The notes beneath the pieces were generated by a model, which was not told the origin of the DNA, did not search any database, and saw only the letters and a list, made by a program, of their open reading frames with translations. 64,000 nucleotides of DNA from Patescibacteria group bacterium (GTDB lineage Bacteria > Patescibacteriota > Minisyncoccia > Phycocordibacterales > EsbW-18), in the NCBI GenBank assembly GCA_038064475.1, contig JBBTTA010000001.1:111086-175085 (forward strand), written 5' to 3'. Made by a program: the position numbers and the translations under genes. Position 1 is the stretch's first letter. Every line of letters starts with the position of its first letter. Shown in pieces: positions 9,218-64,000 of this stretch.

Positions 9218-9442
9218 CTATTTTATAAAGGTGTCATCTATCTCAACAATTTTGTTGCGAGATGTGGTGCCCGCAACAATACACACCGCGCTTTGTGGAA
9301 CATTAAAATGTTTTGCGAGCACGCGGATAAGTTCCATATTTGCCTTCCCTTTTTCTGGCGTGGCGCGAATACCAACTTCAAGCCCCTCTGGAGTTTCTTT
9401 CACAAAATCTCCACGCAACACAACTTTAACGTTGTACTTCAT
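9218..9442 (-). CDS. DUF167 / YggU-family small protein
   Basis: 74 aa with EGKANMELIRVLAKHF...VAGTTSRNKIVEI, matching the YggU/UPF0235 pattern. Confidence 0.65.
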   Translation of the reverse strand: MKYNVKVVLRGDFVKETPEGLEVGIRATPEKGKANMELIRVLAKHFNVPQSAVCIVAGTTSRNKIVEIDDTFIK

Positions 9443-10469
9443 GTGGAGAAACGGTATCTACAAGTGCCAATTCAAGAGGCAAGTGAGCAATGTACGCACG
9501 AGACACTGCTCCATATGCGTCCAAGAATCGTGTAAGCACCGTTGAATTTATTTTTGGATTTTCTGTATGTGCAAATCCTTCCAAAATAGAAAGATCTTCT
9601 TCAGAAAACTCTTCTGCAAACACATCTTTCATATCTTTCGAATAACGAAGTAACAATACTGCGCGCAGTTTTTCCAACAACAGTTTTGCAAATACCTTCA
9701 TATCAACACCGGAATCTGTCGCGGAGCGAAGCGCGGCAAGGCCGCGCGAAGCGTCACTTTCTTGGATTGCGTACAGAATGCCATTGACGAGCTCGCCTTT
9801 TGGAGCCGACATAATAAGCGCGACTTCATCGACTGAAACTGTTTTATCAGACGACGATGCAAGAATTTTCTGCAAGACGCCGTTTGCATCACGGAACGAT
9901 CCGTCAGCCAAAAGTGCGATCAACTCCCCTGCCGCATGCTCAAGTTTAAAACCTTCTTTCTTCGCAACCTCAACAACGTATTCCTTAAGAAGTTTTCGTG
10001 AAGGTGATTTGAAGGTGTGCACTTCACAGCGAGAAACAATTGTTTCGGGGAGTTTTTCGAGTTCTGTTGTCGCGAGAATAAAAATGACGTGCGCTGGTGG
10101 TTCTTCGAGTGTTTTCAAAAGCGCGTTGAATGCTTCTTTTGTAAGCATGTGCACTTCGTCAATAATGTAGACCTTATACGTTGATTCAAATGGCAGTGTA
10201 TTCACCGCTTCACGAAGTGCGCGAACGTCTTCAATGCCACGATTTGATGCGGCATCAAGTTCGTAGAGATCAGTGTCAGTTGTGCCAAGCGCACGCGCCA
10301 CAATTCGCGCTACCGATGTTTTTCCTGTACCACGTGTGCCAGTGAACAGATATGCGTGCGATATATTTCCCTGTTTCAAAGCACCCTGAAGTGGCTTCAC
10401 CACTTGATCCTGTCCGCGGACGTCATCAAACTCCTGTGGACGATATTTTCGGTAGAGGGCGAGCGACAT
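9426..10469 (-). CDS. dnaX: DNA polymerase III subunit gamma/tau, short form
   Basis: It has the AAA+ clamp-loader Walker A (GTRGTGKTS) and the conserved LxxALEEPP box. At 347 aa it is short. Confidence 0.9.
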   Translation of the reverse strand: MSLALYRKYRPQEFDDVRGQDQVVKPLQGALKQGNISHAYLFTGTRGTGKTSVARIVARALGTTDTDLYELDAASNRGIEDVRALREAVNTLPFESTYKVYIIDEVHMLTKEAFNALLKTLEEPPAHVIFILATTELEKLPETIVSRCEVHTFKSPSRKLLKEYVVEVAKKEGFKLEHAAGELIALLADGSFRDANGVLQKILASSSDKTVSVDEVALIMSAPKGELVNGILYAIQESDASRGLAALRSATDSGVDMKVFAKLLLEKLRAVLLLRYSKDMKDVFAEEFSEEDLSILEGFAHTENPKINSTVLTRFLDAYGAVSRAYIAHLPLELALVDTVSPHEVQR

Positions 10470-10561
10470 GGGGCTATTGTAGCAAAATATTAAAAGAGCG
10501 CCCCTCCTTCGCCCCCTTCTTTGCTAAAGCTACGAAGGACAGGGAAGGCTACGGAGGGCAA

Positions 10562-10614
10562 GCAAAAACGAAGACCGCGACCCACTCCAGTTTTTCAACT
10601 GGGGCTGGTCGCGG
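10562..10614 (-). terminator. rho-independent terminator for the upstream minus-strand gene
   Basis: On the minus strand there is a GC-rich hairpin, GCCGCGACC...GGUCGCGG, followed by UCUUCGUUUUUGC. Confidence 0.5.
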
Positions 10615-10624
10615 CTGAAACTAG

Positions 10625-10966
10625 CTACATGACGTGGGGTGCCTTAGGTGCAAGCATCTCACCCCCCTCAACTCCAAACGGTGCATCATCCTTCGAGAAA
10701 AAGCGTATGACCCGAATTTCAATACCCTCTGAAATAAGACGGGGGCGAATCCCTTCCTCTCGAATAGGAACCTGTCGGGCGCACACCTGAAGAACTTCTG
10801 AGGTGAAAACATCGATATGTCCGAGTTTACAGAGACCCGTAAGAGCAAGGATTATTTCCATCTGCGAAAACAGTGGCTCGGTCGATCTATTCTCTTCATA
10901 GACAACGAAAGCTGCTTGTTCTTCTCGGAGAAAAAAGATGTAAGGACGACATTCCCAACTATGCAT
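10625..10966 (-). CDS. hypothetical protein, paralogous to 11071..11442
   Basis: 113 aa. Blocks such as FFLREEQAAFVVYEE and EPLFSQMEIILAL align with the neighbouring 123-aa ORF. Confidence 0.45.
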   Translation of the reverse strand: MHSWECRPYIFFLREEQAAFVVYEENRSTEPLFSQMEIILALTGLCKLGHIDVFTSEVLQVCARQVPIREEGIRPRLISEGIEIRVIRFFSKDDAPFGVEGGEMLAPKAPHVM

Positions 10967-11070
10967 CTCTATCTCCTTTCTGTTAATACATCTCTCTTAG
11001 GTATACGCCACAAAAAAGAAAAAGCAAACGAAAGGCCACACAGAGATTTGTGCGGCCAGAAATGATGACC

Positions 11071-12922: not shown

Positions 12923-13031
12923 AGCACTTGCCTAGTCCGTATTCAAATGGTACATTCATACACCTGTTGTTCTTTGTTCGGCTAGTACGTGTCCGCATGG
13001 GGCGGAACGTTCTAAAGCAGTGGAGGAATGC

Positions 13032-13163
13032 ATGGCGACATTCAAGGGCAAGCCAACCGAGAAGAGCCTCAGCATGGTGAAGTTCTGCCCGAAGCGTACG
13101 AAGCGAAGCTACGCCCAGAGCCAGCAGAAGGATCGCCGCAGTAGGAAGCAGAAGTTCGGCTGA
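13032..13163 (+). CDS. small basic protein of 43 aa (MATFKGKPTEKSLSMVKFCPKRTKRSYAQSQQKDRRSRKQKFG), or alternatively a small RNA
   Basis: GGAGG lies 5 nt upstream of the ATG, and a canonical terminator follows about 30 nt after the stop. Codon usage is GC3-rich and atypical for the window. It is below the ORF-track size cutoff. Confidence 0.35.
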   Translation: MATFKGKPTEKSLSMVKFCPKRTKRSYAQSQQKDRRSRKQKFG

Positions 13164-13193
13164 CCCACCACCGCTACACAGAATCGAAGCACC

Positions 13194-13219
13194 GGAGTCC
13201 CTGTGGGACTCCTTTTTTT
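13194..13219 (+). terminator. rho-independent terminator
   Basis: The hairpin ggagtccc-tgt-gggactcc is followed by ttttttt. Confidence 0.7.
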
Positions 13220-13272
13220 GTTCGCGCTCATTAAGCGCGAACAACCCTTCGTAGCCTTGTGCGAAGTAGGGT

Positions 13273-37812: not shown

Positions 37813-37907
37813 ACACAATATTTTTAAACTACTAATGCGCGCATAATACACATGAGTGCTCAAATTTATTTAAAGAAAAACCTCGACTGTATGTCGAGGT
37901 TTTTCTT

Positions 37908-40640
37908 TTACACTTCCTGATGTTTCGGTGTGGGCGCTGGTGCTTTCATTGATTTCGTGCGCGATGCTTTTCCTTTCTTCACAATTGTCATGATGAATTC
38001 GCGCTCGCCTTTTTCGTTTTCAGTCGGAGCAATATCAACAGACACTTTACCCCCTTCCAAAATTCCCTTCGATACCATAAGTTGTGCCACTTTCGTCAAA
38101 ATCTTGTCCTGAATAAGACGCTTCAATGGACGTGCGCCGTATGTTGGATTAAATCCTTTTTCAGCAAGATATTCAATCGTCGCAGGAGACACTTCAAGTT
38201 CAATCTCTTTTTCAGTAAGGCGCTTTGTGACATTCTTAATCTGAATTTCAACGATGCGTGCAATAGCTTCTTTCGGCAAAATATTGAAGACAAGAATTTC
38301 ATCAAGACGGTTCAAGAATTCTGGGCGGAACTGATCACGAAGTGCTTCCATAACTTTATCGCGAACGTTCATGTTTGATTGTTCATGTGCGTCTGACGAA
38401 CCAAATCCAATCGCATGCATGCGATCGAGGTACTGTGCACCAACATTTGATGTCATAATAACAACGGTATTTTTGAAATTCACAACGCGCCCTTTTGCGT
38501 CAGTCAAACGTCCATCATCCAATACCTGTAAGAGAACGTTGAAGACTTCGGGGTGTGCCTTTTCAATTTCATCAAAGAGAATCACGCTGTAGGGTCGGTG
38601 ACGAACGAGTTCTGTCATTGAACCACCTTCTTCGTGTCCGACATATCCCGGAGGCGCACCAATCACTTTTGACACCGAGTGGCGTTCCATGTATTCAGAC
38701 ATGTCGATGCGGATGAGTGCTTTCTCATCGTCAAACATAAATTCAGCAAGCGCTTTCGCAAGTTCAGTTTTACCAACACCGGTTGGACCAAGAAACATAA
38801 ATGACCCAATCGGACGATTAGGGTCTGCAATACCTGCGCGTGAACGCTTCACGGCATTTGCAATTTTTTCAACCGCTTCATCCTGACCAATGACACGCTC
38901 TTTCAAGACATCTTCCATACGTGAAAGTTTCTCCGCTTCGCTTTCAAGCATGCGTGCGACAGGAACACCCGTCCAACGTGCAACAATTTCAGCAATCTCT
39001 TGTTCAGTTACTTCTTCTTTCAAAATACGACGAGATTTTTGCAAACGTTTCAAACGAGCGTCTTTTGTCTGCAATTCTTTTTCAAGAGCAGGGATGTGGC
39101 CGTAACGAATTTCTGCAGCACGTGCAAGATCTGCTGTTGCTTCGGCAGCTTCAGCCTCGAGACGCTCGCGTTCAAGCGATTTCTTAATATCTTTAATTTC
39201 AGTTATCGTTCCTTTTTCGTTCTTCCATTTAAGTTCAATTTCACTGATTGTTTCCTTGAGGTCAGCAATCCCTTTTTCAATAGCTTTCGTACGTGTCTTT
39301 GCTTTTGCCGCCTTGTCGCTCTTGCCCGCTGCTTCGTTTTTCAAAGCCTCGCGTTCAATTTCAAGAAGCATAATGGCACGGTGCGTCTCTTCAAGAATTG
39401 GTGGCTTGTTTTCAAGCGAAATACGGAGTGCTGATGATGCTTCGTCGATAAGATCGACGGCTTTGTCAGGCAAAAATCGCTCACTGATGTAGCGGCTTGA
39501 AAGGTTTGCTGCGGCAATGAGTGCATCATCAGTGATTTTGACACCGTGGTACAACTCATACTTTTCTTTGAGACCTCGCAAAATAGCAACGGTATCCTCA
39601 ATCGATGGCTCGTTGATATAGACCGGTTGGAAGCGACGTGTGAGTGCGGGATCTTTTTCAATGTGACGCTGGAATTCTTTAAGCGTTGTTGCACCAATCG
39701 CGCGAAGCTCGCCGCGAGCGAGTGCGGGCTTCAACATGTTTGACGCATCCATTGCGCCGTCTGCGGCGCCCGCACCAACGATCGTATGAATCTCATCAAT
39801 GAAGAGAACAATTTTGCCATCTGCTTTTTCGATTTCCTTCACAATCGCTTTCAAACGTTCTTCAAATTCTCCACGATATTTTGTTCCGGCAATCAACGAA
39901 CCCAAATCGAGTGAAACGAGATCTCTGTCTTTGAGTGATTCAGGGATATCGCCTGATGCGATACGCTGTGCAAGCCCTTCGACGACTGCAGTTTTTCCGA
40001 CGCCAGCTTCACCAATCAAAATAGGATTGTTTTTTGTGCGACGAGAAAGAATTTGAATGATGCGATTGATTTCTTTATCGCGACCAATTACGGGATCGAG
40101 TTTATTTTCTTTTGCGAGGTGTGTGAGACTTCGTGTGTAGCGTGCAAGTGCGCGCGGCTTCTTTGTCGTACCATGTGCTTCGTGTGTCGCGTGCTTTTCG
40201 CGCAACTCTTTCAAGATGCGTGTGACGTTTTCTTTTTCAATCTTAAATCGTGACAACACATCACGTACGTCATCAGACGCTTCAAGTGCAGCAATAAAGA
40301 GGTGCTCGGTTGAAATAAACTGGTCAGAGAATGACGACGCAACTTGTGCTGATGCTTCAAGAGACTTCGCCAATTCCTGCGTCAAATACATTTGGTATGA
40401 CGGTGCAATCATGGGACCGTTTTCAGGTGCCTCAATTGCTTCAAGGAGTGCGTCGGTAAGAGAAATCGTATCGACTTCGAGTTTGTCCAAAATAGACGCA
40501 ACCATTGATTCTTCCTGCAAAATCAACGCCGTGACGAGGTGTACGACGTTTACATTGCTCTGACCACGCTCTATAGCGAGTTCATGAGCTTTTTTGATGG
40601 CCTCTTTGGCCTTTGTAGTGAAGTTTTTAAATGGAGGCAT
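37908..40640 (-). CDS. clpB: ATP-dependent chaperone ClpB
   Basis: It has two AAA+ modules with Walker A GEAGVGKT and GPTGVGKT, plus a long middle coiled-coil typical of ClpB. Confidence 0.85.
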
Positions 40641-61976: not shown

Positions 61977-62921
61977 TTAGTACTTCGGAAATGCAGGATA
62001 TTTCTGCGGATCAACCGTTCGTTCGAAACACGTACGTCCTTCACCATGTTCAAAGATTCCTTCCATTCCCCATGGATCACGCGCAGGCACTGTTGCTTCA
62101 CTCATTACACTCTCGCGTGCAAATGTTGCACACAAATCGAACGAAAGCTGGCCTGTAACAGCGTACTCGTATGTCTCACCTGTCTCTGGATCCGTTGGCG
62201 CAACATACCCACTGAACTCATCTGAAAGATCAGAAAGGGCGACAGGAAGTTTTTGTCGTGTCTGCCAGTAGTTCAAAACCTCCCACTGAATACCCGAGAG
62301 ATCAGACACGCGCTGCTCATCAAACTTCAATGCACGTCGTTCGCTTGGAGAACCAATCGTCAAAAACCCACAGACAATTGCTCCAAGAACAAGAAGTGCG
62401 GCAATAACGATGAGTGGTTTATTAACAGATGTATCACCTCGCATTGATCTGCGAAGATCGTAGAAGTAGTAGCCAAAGACACTGCCCGCAACAGCAAAGA
62501 CAGCAAGCATCTTCATCACAAAGCGAATCGTCACTTCACTACCGAGGTATGTGTTCAAGAGTGCAATAACGTCACCCACAACAACCGCACCTGCGGCAAA
62601 AAGTGTAAACCATACAAACCACTTACGAATTGAAAGTGTTGCTTTTGCAGAGTTCGCCGCAATGTCTTTGCGTACCCACCACGACAAAACGAGGAACAAT
62701 GGAAAGACAACGAGAAGCGTTGAAATCGTGAACTGCAACGTTGACGCTGTTGATGAGTAAGAGAAGTAGTAATTTGAGAGTGCATCAGGAAACTTTGAGT
62801 TGATAATTGCAAAAAGCATTGCAAGAAGGCTTCCTGCTGATGTGTAAAGTGAGAGTGCAATGCCCACATAGACGAAGAAGTCCTTTGGAGACATTTTTGG
62901 TCGATCAATTGTTGGTTCCAT
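61977..62921 (-). CDS. hypothetical polytopic membrane protein
   Basis: 314 aa with about 6 TM helices and a soluble C-terminus. Confidence 0.45.
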   Translation of the reverse strand: MEPTIDRPKMSPKDFFVYVGIALSLYTSAGSLLAMLFAIINSKFPDALSNYYFSYSSTASTLQFTISTLLVVFPLFLVLSWWVRKDIAANSAKATLSIRKWFVWFTLFAAGAVVVGDVIALLNTYLGSEVTIRFVMKMLAVFAVAGSVFGYYFYDLRRSMRGDTSVNKPLIVIAALLVLGAIVCGFLTIGSPSERRALKFDEQRVSDLSGIQWEVLNYWQTRQKLPVALSDLSDEFSGYVAPTDPETGETYEYAVTGQLSFDLCATFARESVMSEATVPARDPWGMEGIFEHGEGRTCFERTVDPQKYPAFPKY

Positions 62922-62979
62922 ATGTGTACTTAATGAATATATGCCTCATGGTAGCACCCTTTTTATGCACCCGAGAAAC

Positions 62980-63007
62980 TTGACAAAAACTTAAGATTTG
63001 CTATATT
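62980..63007 (+). promoter_or_regulatory. near-consensus sigma-70 promoter (TTGACA, 16-nt spacer, TATATT)
   Basis: cTTGACAaaaacttaagatttgcTATATTagc is read directly from the sequence. It points into the GC-rich non-coding-looking locus. Confidence 0.4.
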
Positions 63008-63014
63008 AGCGATA

Positions 63015-63535
63015 TCTAGACGTTTGGGTCAAGTGCCCTCCGCCGTAGAGTTCCTTCACAGCAGTTCAGTCTCACCTACCGCCCCTAAACGGGCAAAGGA
63101 GAATGGATGAGGAATCGTCACGGTCCGGTCGCGAACGCGACCAACTTGTTCAACTTCATGAGGAACACCTCGACGCCGGCCTGACCGACGGCTGCGACGA
63201 GTACCCCGCTCGCGAACATCGTGTTCGCGTAAGAGTAACCATGTTCCGCAACACTTCGAGCGTGCGGAACCAATCCCTCGGGAGCACCGATGACGGAAAC
63301 GCCACCGGATTAAGACGCGAGTGCGAGCTCGCACTTCCGCCCACAGCATGTCGCGAGGACATTCTGCACACTCGTTGTTCAAAAGAACCCTGATGATGGG
63401 TCACTGGGACACAGCCGCGACACCGTCCGGCGCCCCCACCCTTTCCCAACCAAAACTGGGACGAATCAGGTATACGAGGCCTTCGAAAAAAAACTAAAAA
63501 GGCGTCTCAAAAAAAGAAAAGAACTGCAACAAACT
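63015..63535 (+). ncRNA. rnpB: GC-rich structured RNA candidate, possibly RNase P RNA
   Basis: Local GC is well above the background. Three mutually overlapping short ORFs in different frames, a typical structural-RNA artefact, cover it. A promoter and a terminator bracket it. P4-like GGUCCGG and ACCGGAUUAAG strands are complementary to each other. There is a GUAAGAG motif after a hairpin, and UCCCUCGGGAGCA resembles the P15 region. The RNA would be short for type A RNase P. Confidence 0.35.
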
Positions 63536-63538
63536 GGC

Positions 63539-63580
63539 CCCGCTCGCGCAATGCGCGAGCGGGGCCTTTTACTTTTCTGA
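63539..63580. terminator. strong bidirectional rho-independent terminator
   Basis: A 14-bp GC-rich hairpin, ggccccgctcgcgc-aat-gcgcgagcggggcc, is followed by ttttacttttct. Confidence 0.75.
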
Positions 63581-63582
63581 TA

Positions 63583-64000
63583 TTATGGTTGGCTTATTAT
63601 TTCCCACTTTTTATTTTGTCGTAGTGCAAACATACCAGCAACAAACAATGCCATTGAGGTGAGTGCAGAAAGCATGCAATACACACATATCGCTTTAATA
63701 ACAAATAGTTGTAAAAATACCAAAACCAGCGAAACACATAATCCCGCAAAAGTGAGTTTTGATGCAAGTACAACATACTTTTTTTCCATACGCGTCAAAG
63801 AGAGAAGCGCTAAAAGAAATATGCTTGCATAGTAGAGCACACCAAAAAACGCCACGGGGATACCACCAATTTCAGAATACGTACTCGTCAAAACCGTCTC
63901 ACATCCCCCAATGATTGAACATGGCACGGGAGCCTCCAACACATGCTCAATAGTTAAAAACATTGCGTCCAAAAATCCTACAAAGGCAAGAATAGTGAAC
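63583..64000 (-). CDS. vitamin K epoxide reductase (VKOR)/DsbB-like membrane protein, partial (N-terminus beyond the window end)
   Basis: It has TM helices and the Cys motifs CSIIGGCETV and CVYC. The reading frame stays open past coordinate 64000. Confidence 0.55.
   Translation of the reverse strand, partial: FTILAFVGFLDAMFLTIEHVLEAPVPCSIIGGCETVLTSTYSEIGGIPVAFFGVLYYASIFLLALLSLTRMEKKYVVLASKLTFAGLCVSLVLVFLQLFVIKAICVYCMLSALTSMALFVAGMFALRQNKKWEIISQP

What the first reader, a model, noticed from the sequence alone, without database searches (positions are those of the whole stretch)
62980..63580. GC-rich 0.5-kb non-coding-looking locus bracketed by a consensus-like promoter and a strong terminator; candidate RNase P RNA
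A TTGACA-16 nt-TATATT promoter at 62980 points into about 500 nt whose GC is far above the local background. Three short ORFs in different frames and strands overlap one another there, as is typical of structural RNA. The locus ends at a 14-bp GC hairpin with a U-tract. Inside, GGUCCGG (63124) and ACCGGAUUAAG (63307) are complementary like RNase P P4 strands. A GUAAGAG element follows a hairpin, as in J11/12, and UCCCUCGGGAGCA resembles the P15 region. No other RNase P RNA candidate is visible in the window. The RNA would be shorter than type A between the P4 strands, so the identification is tentative. It could instead be a different structured RNA.
Basis: partly seen in the sequence, partly recalled or inferred. 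Interest (0 to 1): 0.55.

Follow-up and report, generated by a model that had tools for sequence, protein, structure and literature searches.

The report
Clade-specific structured RNA, not RNase P
The GC-rich locus is a real, separately transcribed structured-RNA gene found only in a narrow group of groundwater Patescibacteria; it is not RNase P but an undescribed, fast-evolving RNA with conserved ribosome-binding sites followed by tiny, non-conserved reading frames.

Summary
A near-consensus promoter (62980-63007), about 560 nt at 56-61% GC (window mean 45.7%) and a 14-bp terminator (63536-63566) form a stand-alone + strand unit.

The RNase P reading does not hold:
- No RNase P, tmRNA, SRP or 6S model matches, even at E<=10.
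- The conserved P4 motifs (CR-I, CR-V) are absent from all 12 related elements.
- The region holding the proposed P4, J11/12 and P15 motifs is not conserved.

Related elements sit at the same spot (YchF-[element]-DUF5671-LeuRS) in relatives whose DUF5671 protein is 59-73% identical. They range from 186 to 942 nt. The element is missing from one relative at 58% and from all at 46% or less.

No long ORF is conserved, and none has real homologs in billions of proteins. Three modules show compensatory base-pair changes. SD-spacer-AUG sites are enriched on the + strand (20, versus 3 on the - strand and 5.0 +/- 2.2 in shuffles), but the ORFs behind them are 2-32 codons and not conserved as peptides.

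Best reading: an undescribed, lineage-specific, modular structured RNA that engages ribosomes. Its function is unknown. A family-wide anti-SD gating model was tested and not supported.

The parts
62980..63007 (+). Promoter of the element: -35 TTGACA (62980-62985), 16-nt spacer, extended -10 TGcTATATT (62999-63007). The transcript probably starts near 63014.
   Evidence: 11 of 12 matches, TG present. The same TTGACA-N16-17-TGnTATAnT layout occurs in 9 of 11 related elements. It is the only promoter of this type in the 64-kb window.
63015..63049 (+). 5' stem-loop. P1 pairs UCUAG (63015-63019) with C63044 and UAGA (63046-63049), and CG (63021-22) with CG (63041-42). It is capped by hairpin 1, GGGU-CAAGU-GCCC (63026-63038).
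   Evidence: RNAalifold consensus of the four subgroup-1 members. Own MFE fold. 81% identity over 43 nt with L054. The covariance model built from subgroup 1, which includes the window itself, scores the window 78.6 bits over 63010-63112.
63050..63073 (+). Pyrimidine-rich segment: GUUCCUUC (63050-57, the family motif GUUCYUU), GUUCA (63064-68) and UCUC (63070-73). In the predicted fold it pairs with the SD/AUG region downstream.
   Evidence: Motif conserved across subgroups. Pairing seen in the MFE and centroid folds. In the window the site is less accessible than in shuffled controls (P unpaired 0.13 vs 0.29), but this does not hold across the family.
63081..63101 (+). Hairpin 2, GCCCC-UAAA-CGGGC (63081-63094), followed by the Shine-Dalgarno sequence AAAGGAG (63095-63101).
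   Evidence: AAACGGGCAAAGGAG is identical over 15 nt in L066, and L010 has a close version. The hairpin next to the SD is present in all members, with three pair types at positions 3 and 4.
63107..63184 (+). Mini-ORF A, 25 codons (MRNRHGPVANATNLFNFMRNTSTPA*). Its AUG lies 5 nt after GGAG. The 96-aa ORF's AUG at 63103 lies only 1 nt after the SD. The ORF contains the hairpin GGUCGCG-AA-CGCGACC (63126-63141).
   Evidence: The peptide is not conserved: translated similarity to relatives is higher out of frame than in frame (49 vs 16 for the window against L059), so the constraint is at the nucleotide level.
63185..63279 (+). Cluster of GC hairpins: CGCGAACA-UCG-UGUUCGCG (63211-63229) and GUUCCGCA...UGCGGAAC (63243-63270). 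CCCCGCUCGCG (63204-63214) is an exact copy of the terminator's 5' arm.
   Evidence: Only 10-11-nt chance-level matches to other members, so this part is lineage-specific.
63280..63313 (+). Second ribosome-binding site (GGGAG at 63280-84, 5-nt spacer) with a 7-codon mini-ORF MTETPPD* (63290-63313). Can also form a GNRA-type hairpin, (G)ACG-GAAA-CGCC.
   Evidence: A 32-nt block is 91% identical in L061 (MAETPPD*), and L066 has a related MAQTPPS* with synonymous changes in its Pro codons.
63321..63388 (+). Palindromic hairpin GUGCGAGCUCGCAC (63321-34); conserved block CACUUCCGCCCAC (63332-44); hairpins AUGUC-GCGAG-GACAU (63348-62) and GUUC-AAAA-GAAC (63377-88).
   Evidence: CACTTCCGCCCAC is identical in L059, where it precedes the GAGGAGG-AUGG three-way-junction module.
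63389..63470 (+). Multi-branch domain closed by CCUGAU (63389-94) pairing with AUCAGG (63465-70). It starts with AUGAUGGGU, a possible counterpart of the AUGGUSWUGGG three-way junction seen in L054, L057, L059 and L064.
   Evidence: MFE and centroid folds. The junction is supported by covariation in the four relatives. Its homology to the window's domain is inferred only.
63471..63535 (+). A-rich, weakly structured tail (two AGGCNUNNNAAAAAAA repeats) leading up to the terminator.
   Evidence: A purine/A-rich tract before the terminator is seen in other members too.
63536..63576 (+). Intrinsic terminator: 14-bp stem (13 G-C), 3-nt loop, then UUUUACUUUU. It may also terminate the convergent VKOR gene on the - strand.
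   Evidence: All 10 full-length members end in a GC hairpin with a T-run on this strand. The only two differences from strain variant L004 in 2,779 nt lie at the top of this hairpin.

Best explanation
The locus is a single-copy, separately transcribed gene for a structured RNA of about 560 nt on the + strand. It belongs to an undescribed family confined to a narrow clade of Paceibacteria-type Patescibacteria, where it always lies head-to-head with the DUF5671-leuS operon.

**Shown:**
- A strong promoter and an intrinsic terminator are conserved.
- There is no conserved protein frame.
- Three modules (hairpin 2, a long 5' hairpin and a three-way junction) keep their pairing through compensatory changes.
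- Shine-Dalgarno-plus-AUG sites are conserved and specific to the + strand, while the ORFs behind them (2-32 codons) vary freely in length and sequence.
- The family is modular and evolves fast, from 186 to 942 nt.

**Inferred:**
- The RNA acts as an RNA, in a regulatory or ribosome-associated role.
- Ribosomes load at the conserved sites. Translating the mini-ORFs probably serves the RNA itself, by shaping its folding or protecting it from decay or premature termination, and does not yield functional proteins.

The closest functional analogy is a dual-function or leader-peptide-bearing small RNA. It is not RNase P.
For: - **Transcription unit:**
- **GC peak:**
- **Synteny and distribution:**
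- **Sequence links between members:** window vs L057 E = 4e-10, L054 2e-9, L056 2e-7, plus a 32-nt block at 91% in L061. Further short blocks.
- **No conserved protein:**
  - Six-frame matches occur only between close pairs, in all frames and both strands, and switch frame from block to block.
  - The 108-aa ORF has no homolog in 5.8 billion proteins.
  - The 96-aa ORF matches only itself and tandem-repeat artefacts, and was called only once, on a 995-nt contig.
  - No Pfam hits.
  - Gene callers leave the gap empty.
  - Indels between L054 and L057 are mostly not multiples of 3.
- **Structure:**
  - Three-way junction: 97% of cells paired vs 78% shuffled, 11 of 19 pairs compensatory, slid controls 29-52%.
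  - Subgroup-2 5' hairpin: 100% paired, 6 compensatory pairs.
  - Hairpin 2 pairs in all members, with 3 pair types at two positions.
  - Fold z = -4.3.
- **Strand:** about 11 G-U cells against 1 A-C cell in the scored helices. T-runs follow the terminators on the + strand.
- **Ribosome-binding sites:** 20 SD-AUG sites on the + strand, 3 on the - strand, 5.0 +/- 2.2 in shuffles, 0 of 500 shuffles reaching 20. At the junction-linked site, GAGGAGG and AUG are kept while the spacer varies in sequence and length.
- **Peptides not constrained:**, and ORFs of 7, 32, 14 and 15 codons behind the same site.
Against: - There are no expression data, so the transcript, its ends and any translation are all predicted.
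- Only 12 members are available, some truncated.
- The covariation alignments were made by hand to fit the proposed helices, with only 3-4 sequences each, so they lean towards the structure.
- The link between the two subgroups is not statistically significant. The subgroup-1 covariance model gives L064 10 bits, E about 1; the subgroup-2 HMM gives the window E = 0.07. The link rests on synteny, promoter layout and short collinear blocks.
- About three quarters of the window's element has no detectable counterpart in any other member, so much of it may be under weak constraint or none.
- SD-AUG counts come from related sequences, so the number of independent events is nearer 8-9 than 20.
- A specific anti-SD gating mechanism was tested and failed across the family.
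- The TPP mini-ORF keeps its two Pro codons through synonymous changes, so at least one peptide might matter.
Confidence: 0.6

Rival explanations
1. The transcript is mainly a messenger for one or more very small proteins (mini-ORF A of 16-31 aa, or the 7-aa MxxTPPx peptide). The GC-rich remainder is structured untranslated region.
For: - Conserved, + strand-specific SD-AUG sites with proper spacing.
- The sites are moderately accessible (mean P unpaired 0.40).
- There is one in-frame 3-nt indel inside ORF A between L054 and L057.
- The MxxTPPx* mini-ORF recurs in three members with synonymous changes in its Pro codons, and an MPPN start recurs in three members.
Against: - Peptide similarity is higher out of frame than in frame.
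- The same initiation site is followed by ORFs of 7, 32, 14 and 15 codons, and by 2 codons in L068.
- L054 and L057 differ in ORF A by 1 synonymous and 3 non-synonymous changes.
- Covarying helices run through the ORFs.
- This reading does not explain 400-800 nt of GC-rich, hairpin-rich sequence.
Confidence: 0.2
2. It is a highly diverged or reduced RNase P RNA. CPR bacteria are known to carry diverged forms that escape standard thresholds.
For: - The window has GAGGAA..GUCCGG, GCGUAAGAG and ACCGGAUUA in the order expected for CR-I, J11/12 and CR-V.
- Lui et al. 2021 found that 10 of 35 circular CPR genomes needed lowered RF00010 thresholds (PMC8172020).
- No RNase P was found anywhere else in the 64-kb window.
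Against: - No RNase P model matches at E<=10, which lists hits down to about 14 bits, in the locus, in the window or in four relatives.
- CR-I and CR-V are absent within 3 mismatches from all 12 members.
- The motifs are not conserved in relatives.
- Members range from 186 to 942 nt, and the element is absent next to DUF5671 in L009 and in all more distant relatives. An essential, universal ribozyme would not behave this way.
- The window covers only 64 kb of a contig of about 324 kb, so the real rnpB can easily lie elsewhere.
Confidence: 0.02
3. It is non-functional, or only weakly constrained, GC-rich spacer: decayed foreign DNA or accumulated palindromic hairpins. On this view the promoter and terminator serve the neighbouring genes.
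For: - Turnover is very fast, and about 75% of the window's element has no counterpart elsewhere.
- Length varies from 186 to 942 nt.
- Contigs often break at this spot: L010, L053, L056, L063 and L069.
- Part of the terminator arm is duplicated inside the element.
- The terminator could serve the convergent VKOR or YchF gene.
Against: - A near-consensus promoter pointing into the element, away from any gene, is conserved in 9 of 11 members.
- GC is far above the genome mean in every member, the opposite of what decay would give.
- Helices show compensatory changes.
- SD-AUG sites are strand-specific.
- There is no similarity to phages or plasmids.
- It is single-copy, so it is not a dispersed repeat.
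Confidence: 0.08
4. It is a long cis-acting leader on the - strand (T-box-like or similar) that controls the DUF5671-leuS operon downstream of it on that strand.
For: - On the - strand the element lies directly upstream of DUF5671 and LeuRS.
- The - strand folds slightly better (z = -5.3 against -4.3).
Against: - No T-box or other leader model matches on either strand.
- G-U pairs in the covarying helices would become A-C mismatches on the - strand.
- SD-AUG sites number 20 on the + strand and 3 on the - strand.
- The T-runs follow the terminators on the + strand.
- DUF5671 appears to have its own extended -10 box (TGCTACCAT, 62948-62956 on the - strand), lying between the element's promoter and the gene. 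This is read from the sequences.
Confidence: 0.03

Closest known systems
Bacterial RNase P RNA, type A (Rfam RF00010), including the diverged CPR forms described by Lui et al. 2021 (PMC8172020)
   Same: A GC-rich, hairpin-rich RNA of a few hundred nucleotides with its own promoter and terminator, in a CPR genome where RNase P RNA is known to be hard to detect. The window has three short motifs that superficially resemble CR-I, J11/12 and CR-V.
   Different: No covariance-model match. No CR-I or CR-V in any family member. The motifs are not conserved. Length varies five-fold. The element is absent from close and distant relatives at this locus. It carries ribosome-binding sites and mini-ORFs, which RNase P RNA does not have.
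Dual-function small RNAs, e.g. Staphylococcus aureus RNAIII (514 nt, encodes the 26-aa delta-haemolysin) and Bacillus subtilis SR1/SR1P (from my own knowledge)
   Same: A stand-alone transcription unit, about 0.5 kb, with many hairpins, that combines RNA structure with a Shine-Dalgarno-preceded small ORF.
   Different: No sequence or structural homology. Here there are several initiation sites per RNA, and the ORFs are not conserved in sequence or length (2-32 codons). No target-binding seed has been identified. Length is highly variable.
Large GC-rich bacterial non-coding RNAs of unknown function found by GC-rich intergenic-region screens (OLE, ROOL, GOLLD, raiA; Rfam; screens such as PMC6429828 and PMC8632094, whose titles and abstracts were seen)
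   Same: A long, GC-rich intergenic RNA in a lower-GC genome, with predicted complex structure and no known function.
   Different: Those families have elaborate, strongly conserved consensus structures and a wide distribution. This one is modular and fast-evolving, restricted to one small clade, matches none of them in Rfam 15, and carries translation-initiation sites.
Leader-peptide attenuators and regulatory upstream ORFs (trpL, ermCL and the like; from my own knowledge)
   Same: A conserved ribosome-binding site and start codon followed by a very short ORF whose translation, not its product, is what matters. The site is embedded in alternative RNA hairpins. The window also has a duplicated terminator arm that could act as a competitor (63204-63214).
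   Different: There is no downstream structural gene: the transcript ends at its own terminator and the next gene is convergent. No amino-acid-specific codon run is present.
Type I toxin mRNAs (hok, tisB and the like; from my own knowledge)
   Same: A highly structured, stable-looking small mRNA with a short ORF. In the window member the initiation region is partly sequestered.
   Different: The peptides here are hydrophilic or basic, not hydrophobic membrane peptides, and they are not conserved. No antisense RNA gene was identified. Sequestration is not seen across the family.

Membership tests
Bacterial RNase P RNA (Rfam RF00010/RF00011; also archaeal RF00373, nuclear RF00009, type T RF02357) | A match to an RNase P covariance model, even below the gathering score as in diverged CPR forms | tested here: not met
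   No RNase P family appears at E<=10 (hits are listed down to about 14 bits) in window 62900-63650, in the whole window or in L054, L057, L059 and L061.
Bacterial RNase P RNA | The universally conserved P4 sequences: CR-I (GAGGAAAGUCCGG) and CR-V (ACAGAAnnCGGCUUA) | tested here: not met
   Within 3 mismatches neither motif occurs at a plausible site in any of the 12 members; the only hit is a 3-mismatch CR-I-like match inside L064's terminator. The window's CGGAUUA is shared only with L061.
Bacterial RNase P RNA | A P4 long-range helix and core helices conserved among relatives | tested here: not met
   The proposed P4 strands (63122-63128 and 63304-63314) have no counterpart in most members. 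The 186-nt member L068 lacks the entire region.
Bacterial RNase P RNA | An essential, universal gene with a stable core size (about 300-450 nt in bacteria) | tested here: not met
   Members range from 186 to 942 nt. The element is absent at this locus in L009 (58% neighbour identity) and in all relatives at 46% or less. Those genomes may of course carry rnpB elsewhere.
Bacterial RNase P RNA | Pre-tRNA 5'-leader cleavage activity | not testable with these tools
   Needs an in vitro cleavage assay.
tmRNA (Rfam RF00023 and two-piece forms; ARAGORN) | A tRNA-like domain formed by the 5' and 3' ends, plus a tag reading frame | tested here: not met
   ARAGORN finds nothing in window 62800-63700 or in ten related loci. 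No Rfam match.
SRP RNA and 6S RNA (Rfam) | A match to the family covariance model | tested here: not met
   No such match at E<=10.
T-box or other cis-acting leader of the DUF5671-leuS operon | Lies on the same strand as the regulated gene, directly upstream of it, and matches a leader model | tested here: not met
   Strand indicators favour the + strand: 20 vs 3 SD-AUG sites, + strand T-runs, G-U pairs. No T-box match on either strand.
Dual-function small RNA (a functional class, not a homology family) | A stand-alone structured RNA carrying a translatable small ORF | tested here: inconclusive
   The stand-alone unit, the structure and the SD-AUG sites are shown. Translation and any RNA-level target are untested. 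The peptides are not conserved.
Protein-coding gene (the 96-aa ORF at 63103-63393, or the - strand ORFs) | A reading frame conserved in relatives, or homologs in protein databases | tested here: not met
   No Pfam hit. The 96-aa ORF matches only itself and tandem-repeat artefacts among 1.84 billion representatives. The 108-aa ORF has no homolog. The window shares no translated match with any relative. The 96-aa ORF's AUG lies only 1 nt after the SD. The 97-aa - strand ORF was tested only by Pfam and by the six-frame comparison.

The most novel reading that the evidence does not exclude
The conserved SD-AUG sites on a fast-evolving structured scaffold are the functional core. On this reading the RNA exists to recruit or park ribosomes, either as a ribosome-sequestering RNA or as a sensor of translational status. 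That would make it a kind of riboregulator not described before, in bacteria with minimal genomes and few known regulators.
Probability: 0.1. Interest if true: 0.7.

Novelty: new variant of a known kind. Interest (0 to 1): 0.4.

Why it matters
Almost nothing is known about regulatory RNAs in Patescibacteria (CPR), which cannot be grown alone and have very small genomes. If this element is real, it is a lineage-specific RNA gene with a strong promoter. It keeps its ribosome-binding sites while the rest of it changes quickly in sequence and length. That pattern would be a useful handle on how these organisms couple RNA function to translation.

There is also a practical lesson for annotation. 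A GC-rich, ORF-free island in a CPR genome should not be assigned to RNase P on motif resemblance alone. The 96-aa ORF at this locus should not be annotated as a protein.

Tried and rejected
- **RNase P, tmRNA, SRP, 6S, T-box:** no Rfam match at the gathering score or at E<=10, for the locus, the window or the relatives. ARAGORN was negative.
- **Protein-coding readings:** Pfam, a search of 5.8 billion proteins, a search of 1.84 billion representatives and a six-frame comparison across the family were all negative. The hit to P0122 (E = 8e-23) is one weak local match multiplied by 10 perfect tandem repeats.
- **Peptide-level conservation of mini-ORF A:** it looked plausible by eye, with an in-frame indel and Met-Arg encoded by different Arg codons. 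The frame test rejects it, because out-of-frame translations score higher.
- **Anti-SD gating as a family-wide mechanism:** RNAalifold and MFE folds pair the pyrimidine motif with the SD in subgroup 1. But there are no compensatory changes there, and SD-AUG accessibility equals that of upstream-shuffled controls (0.40 vs 0.38).
- **CsrA-type sponge:** by eye, the window RNA has about 12 GGA motifs in about 520 nt, near the roughly 10 expected from its composition. This idea was not pursued.
- **Joining the two subgroups with a covariance model:** not significant.
- **Mobile-element or foreign origin:** no phage match, and only a 37-nt chance-level match to a Streptomyces plasmid.
- **Extra copies:** none in the window or in 69 loci.
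- **MAFFT alignments across subgroups** were out of register and were not used for pair counts.
- **Literature searches** found no description of such an RNA in CPR bacteria.
Full report
**1. The observation**

- A sigma-70-type promoter, TTGACA-16 nt-TATATT with an upstream TG, lies at 62980-63007. A 14-bp terminator (13 G-C pairs) lies at 63536-63566, followed by TTTTACTTTT.
- GC is 0.565-0.585 between 63000 and 63400, against 0.36-0.45 on either side. In 300-nt windows this is the highest GC peak of the whole 64-kb window: 0.61 against a mean of 0.457.
- Overlapping ORFs of 96 aa (+), 108 aa (-) and 97 aa (-) are present.
- The quoted motifs exist within 2-3 nt of the stated positions.
- The predicted transcript folds better than all 100 dinucleotide shuffles (z = -4.3).

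**2. RNase P and the other known RNAs**

At Rfam's gathering thresholds the window yields only six tRNAs.

Diverged CPR RNase P RNAs are known to fall below Rfam's thresholds. Lui et al. 2021 found this in 10 of 35 circular CPR genomes (PMC8172020). I therefore repeated the search at E<=10, which lists hits down to about 14 bits. I ran it on the locus alone, the whole window, two other gene-free gaps and four related elements. No RNase P, tmRNA, SRP, 6S or T-box model appears. The only hits in the locus are driven by the terminator hairpin.

ARAGORN finds no tmRNA. The universally conserved P4 sequences CR-I and CR-V are absent, within 3 mismatches, from all 12 family members.

**3. Origin and relatives**

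The flanking genes encode a DUF5671 membrane protein (61977-62921, -) followed by LeuRS, and a VKOR-family protein (63583 onward, -).

Identical copies occur in Hainich groundwater metagenomes, where the gene callers leave the 660-nt gap empty. The DUF5671 protein is MEK7606146.1, from a Patescibacteria MAG. Related genomes are Paceibacteria-type CPR bacteria.

I fetched contigs encoding DUF5671 homologs that are 59-73% identical. In these, the same position (YchF-[gap]-DUF5671-LeuRS) holds a gene-free stretch of 55-74% GC in genomes of 47-55% GC.
- Nine of eleven carry a TTGACA-N16-17-TGnTATAnT promoter pointing into the gap.
- All full-length members end in a GC hairpin followed by a T-run on the same strand.

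Sequence similarity to the window is detectable:
- L057 E = 4e-10, L054 2e-9 and L056 2e-7. The query for these included the promoter.
- A 32-nt block is 91% identical in L061.
- Further short collinear blocks are listed.

From the end of the -10 box to the terminator T-run, the elements measure 186 nt (L068) to 942 nt (L054); the window's is 563 nt.

The element is absent from L009, where the neighbour is 58% identical and VKOR abuts DUF5671. It is also absent from all loci at 46% identity or less. It is single-copy in everything I hold and has no similarity to phages or plasmids.

**4. What this means for the RNase P reading**

- L068 goes straight from the 5' domain and a two-codon ORF to the terminator.
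- ACCGGATTA recurs only in L061, as the end of a 7-codon mini-ORF block.

A five-fold length range, patchy presence and the absence of the catalytic-core motifs are incompatible with an essential, universal ribozyme. The window covers only 64 kb of a contig of about 324 kb, so the real rnpB can simply lie elsewhere.

**5. It is not a protein gene**

- No Pfam hit for any of the three long ORFs.
- The 108-aa ORF has no homolog among 5.8 billion proteins.
- Among 1.84 billion representatives, the 96-aa ORF finds only itself plus proteins made of perfect tandem repeats, in which one weak match is multiplied 10-12 times. It was called as a gene only once, on a 995-nt contig. Its AUG lies 1 nt after the SD, whereas the AUG at 63107 lies 5 nt after it.
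- A six-frame all-against-all comparison of the 12 elements gives matches only between close pairs. They occur in every frame and on both strands, as short blocks that change frame. The window matches nothing.
- Indels between L054 and L057 are mostly not multiples of three.

**6. Evidence for RNA structure**

Three modules keep their base pairing while their sequence changes.
- **Three-way junction** (L054, L057, L059, L064): 97.2% of cells pair against 77.6% in shuffles. Eleven of 19 pairs change on both sides. Slid-register controls give 29-52% pairing and 0-2 such pairs.
- **Long 5' hairpin of subgroup 2** (L010, L061, L064): 100% of cells pair, with 6 compensatory pairs; controls give 40-60%.
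- **Hairpin next to the first SD:** it pairs in all members, with three pair types at two positions.

The caveats are that each test has only 3-4 sequences (up to 11 for the hairpin) and that I made the alignments by hand to fit the helices.

G-U pairs outnumber A-C by about 11 to 1 in these helices, which favours the + strand.

The two sequence subgroups are not joined by statistics. The subgroup-1 covariance model scores L064 at the correct place with only 10 bits, and the subgroup-2 HMM hits the window at E = 0.07. Their relationship rests on synteny, promoter layout and short shared blocks.

**7. Ribosome-binding sites**

Sites with GGAG or GAGG 4-11 nt upstream of an ATG occur 20 times on the + strand of the 12 elements. 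That compares with 3 on the - strand and 5.0 +/- 2.2 in dinucleotide shuffles; no shuffle of 500 reaches 20. Because the sequences are related, the number of independent events is nearer 8-9.

At the site in front of the three-way junction, GAGGAGG and AUG are kept while the spacer varies in sequence and length. That is how a translation-initiation region behaves.

The ORFs that follow are not conserved:
- The junction-linked site is followed by ORFs of 7, 32, 14 and 15 codons, and the first site in L068 by only 2 codons.
- For mini-ORF A, translated similarity is higher out of frame than in frame, 49 against 16.

The one possible exception is the 7-codon MTETPPD* (63290-63313). It appears as MAETPPD* in L061 and MAQTPPS* in L066, with synonymous changes in the two Pro codons.

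**8. Mechanism**

I first favoured gating of the first initiation site by the conserved pyrimidine motif GUUCYUU. It pairs with the SD in the folds of subgroup 1 and with an upstream purine mimic in subgroup 2.

The test did not support this across the family. The mean probability that SD..AUG is unpaired is 0.40, against 0.38 when the upstream sequence is shuffled. Only the window member is lower (0.13 against 0.29, with 9% of shuffles as low).

What the data do support is narrower. This is a structured RNA that keeps accessible ribosome-binding sites whose downstream ORFs are free to vary. I infer that ribosome loading, or translation of the mini-ORFs, serves the RNA in cis by affecting its folding, stability or protection from premature termination. 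I also infer that the RNA itself is the functional product. This step is inference, not demonstration.

**9. Verdict**

The general reading, a non-coding structured RNA gene, is supported. The specific reading, RNase P, is not supported.

The element is best described as an undescribed, clade-restricted, modular structured RNA with conserved initiation sites and non-conserved mini-ORFs. Functionally it is closest to dual-function or leader-peptide-bearing small RNAs, but it is homologous to none in Rfam 15.

Interest is moderate. New lineage-specific RNAs in CPR genomes are to be expected, but the combination of conserved ribosome-binding sites with a rapidly changing scaffold is unusual and can be tested.

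Noticed in passing
window 63204-63214 versus 63538-63548 and 63554-63564: CCCCGCTCGCG inside the element is an exact 11-nt copy of the terminator's 5' arm, so it is fully complementary to the terminator's 3' arm, 339 nt away. It could be a competing (anti-terminator-like) pairing or a remnant of a duplication.
   Followed up: no
window 10470-11070: A 600-nt gap with no ORF of 120 aa or more, with raised GC (0.54), directly upstream of a dnaX-like gene (9426-10469, - strand). The - strand fold has z = -3.0. No Rfam match even with lax filters, and no Pfam hit for its small ORFs. In many bacteria SRP RNA sits upstream of dnaX (my own knowledge), so this could be another unrecognised RNA.
   Followed up: partly
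window 12923-13272: A 350-nt gap at GC 0.55 between a dihydrouridine-synthase-like gene and an FtsQ-like gene (gene names judged from the translations, not tested). It contains a small basic ORF (13020-13163, +; 43 aa from its first ATG). No Rfam or Pfam hit.
   Followed up: partly
L010, L053, L056, L063, L069 (contig ends): Several metagenome contigs end inside or right next to the element. This suggests strain-level heterogeneity, or assembly trouble at this GC-rich, hairpin-rich spot.
   Followed up: no
window 63552-63553 versus L004: Strain variant L004 differs from the window at only two adjacent bases in 2,779 nt (TG to CC). Both lie at the top of the terminator hairpin, changing a 14-bp stem with a 3-nt loop into 13 bp with a 5-nt loop. 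It could also be a sequencing error at a hairpin.
   Followed up: yes
window 63583-64000 and L001 4253-5339, compared with L054, L059, L061 and L064: In the window's genome a DsbA-VKOR gene pair lies between YchF and the element. In all relatives that carry the element and extend far enough, YchF is the direct far-side neighbour. In L009 a VKOR-like ORF abuts DUF5671 with no element. The element stays attached to the DUF5671 side.
   Followed up: partly
window 62948-62956 (- strand): TGCTACCAT, an extended -10-like box for the DUF5671 gene, is conserved in relatives (L054 TGCTACCAT, L068 TGCTATACT). It lies back-to-back with the element's promoter, so the two -35 regions would overlap (read).
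   Followed up: no
window 37870-37912: A cluster of sub-threshold Rfam sRNA hits (ncr1015, BSnc120, ohsC) is explained by an ordinary bidirectional terminator, AAAAACCTCGACTGTATGTCGAGGTTTTTC, between two convergent genes.
   Followed up: yes
L054 and L057, 3' halves of the elements: These two members share a long 3' domain that is 70-88% identical (e.g. TGCGACAGACCCCGCTCCAACAGGAGATAGGACCGGTTAAAG). It has no counterpart in the window element and no Rfam match. It may be a separate structured module.
   Followed up: no
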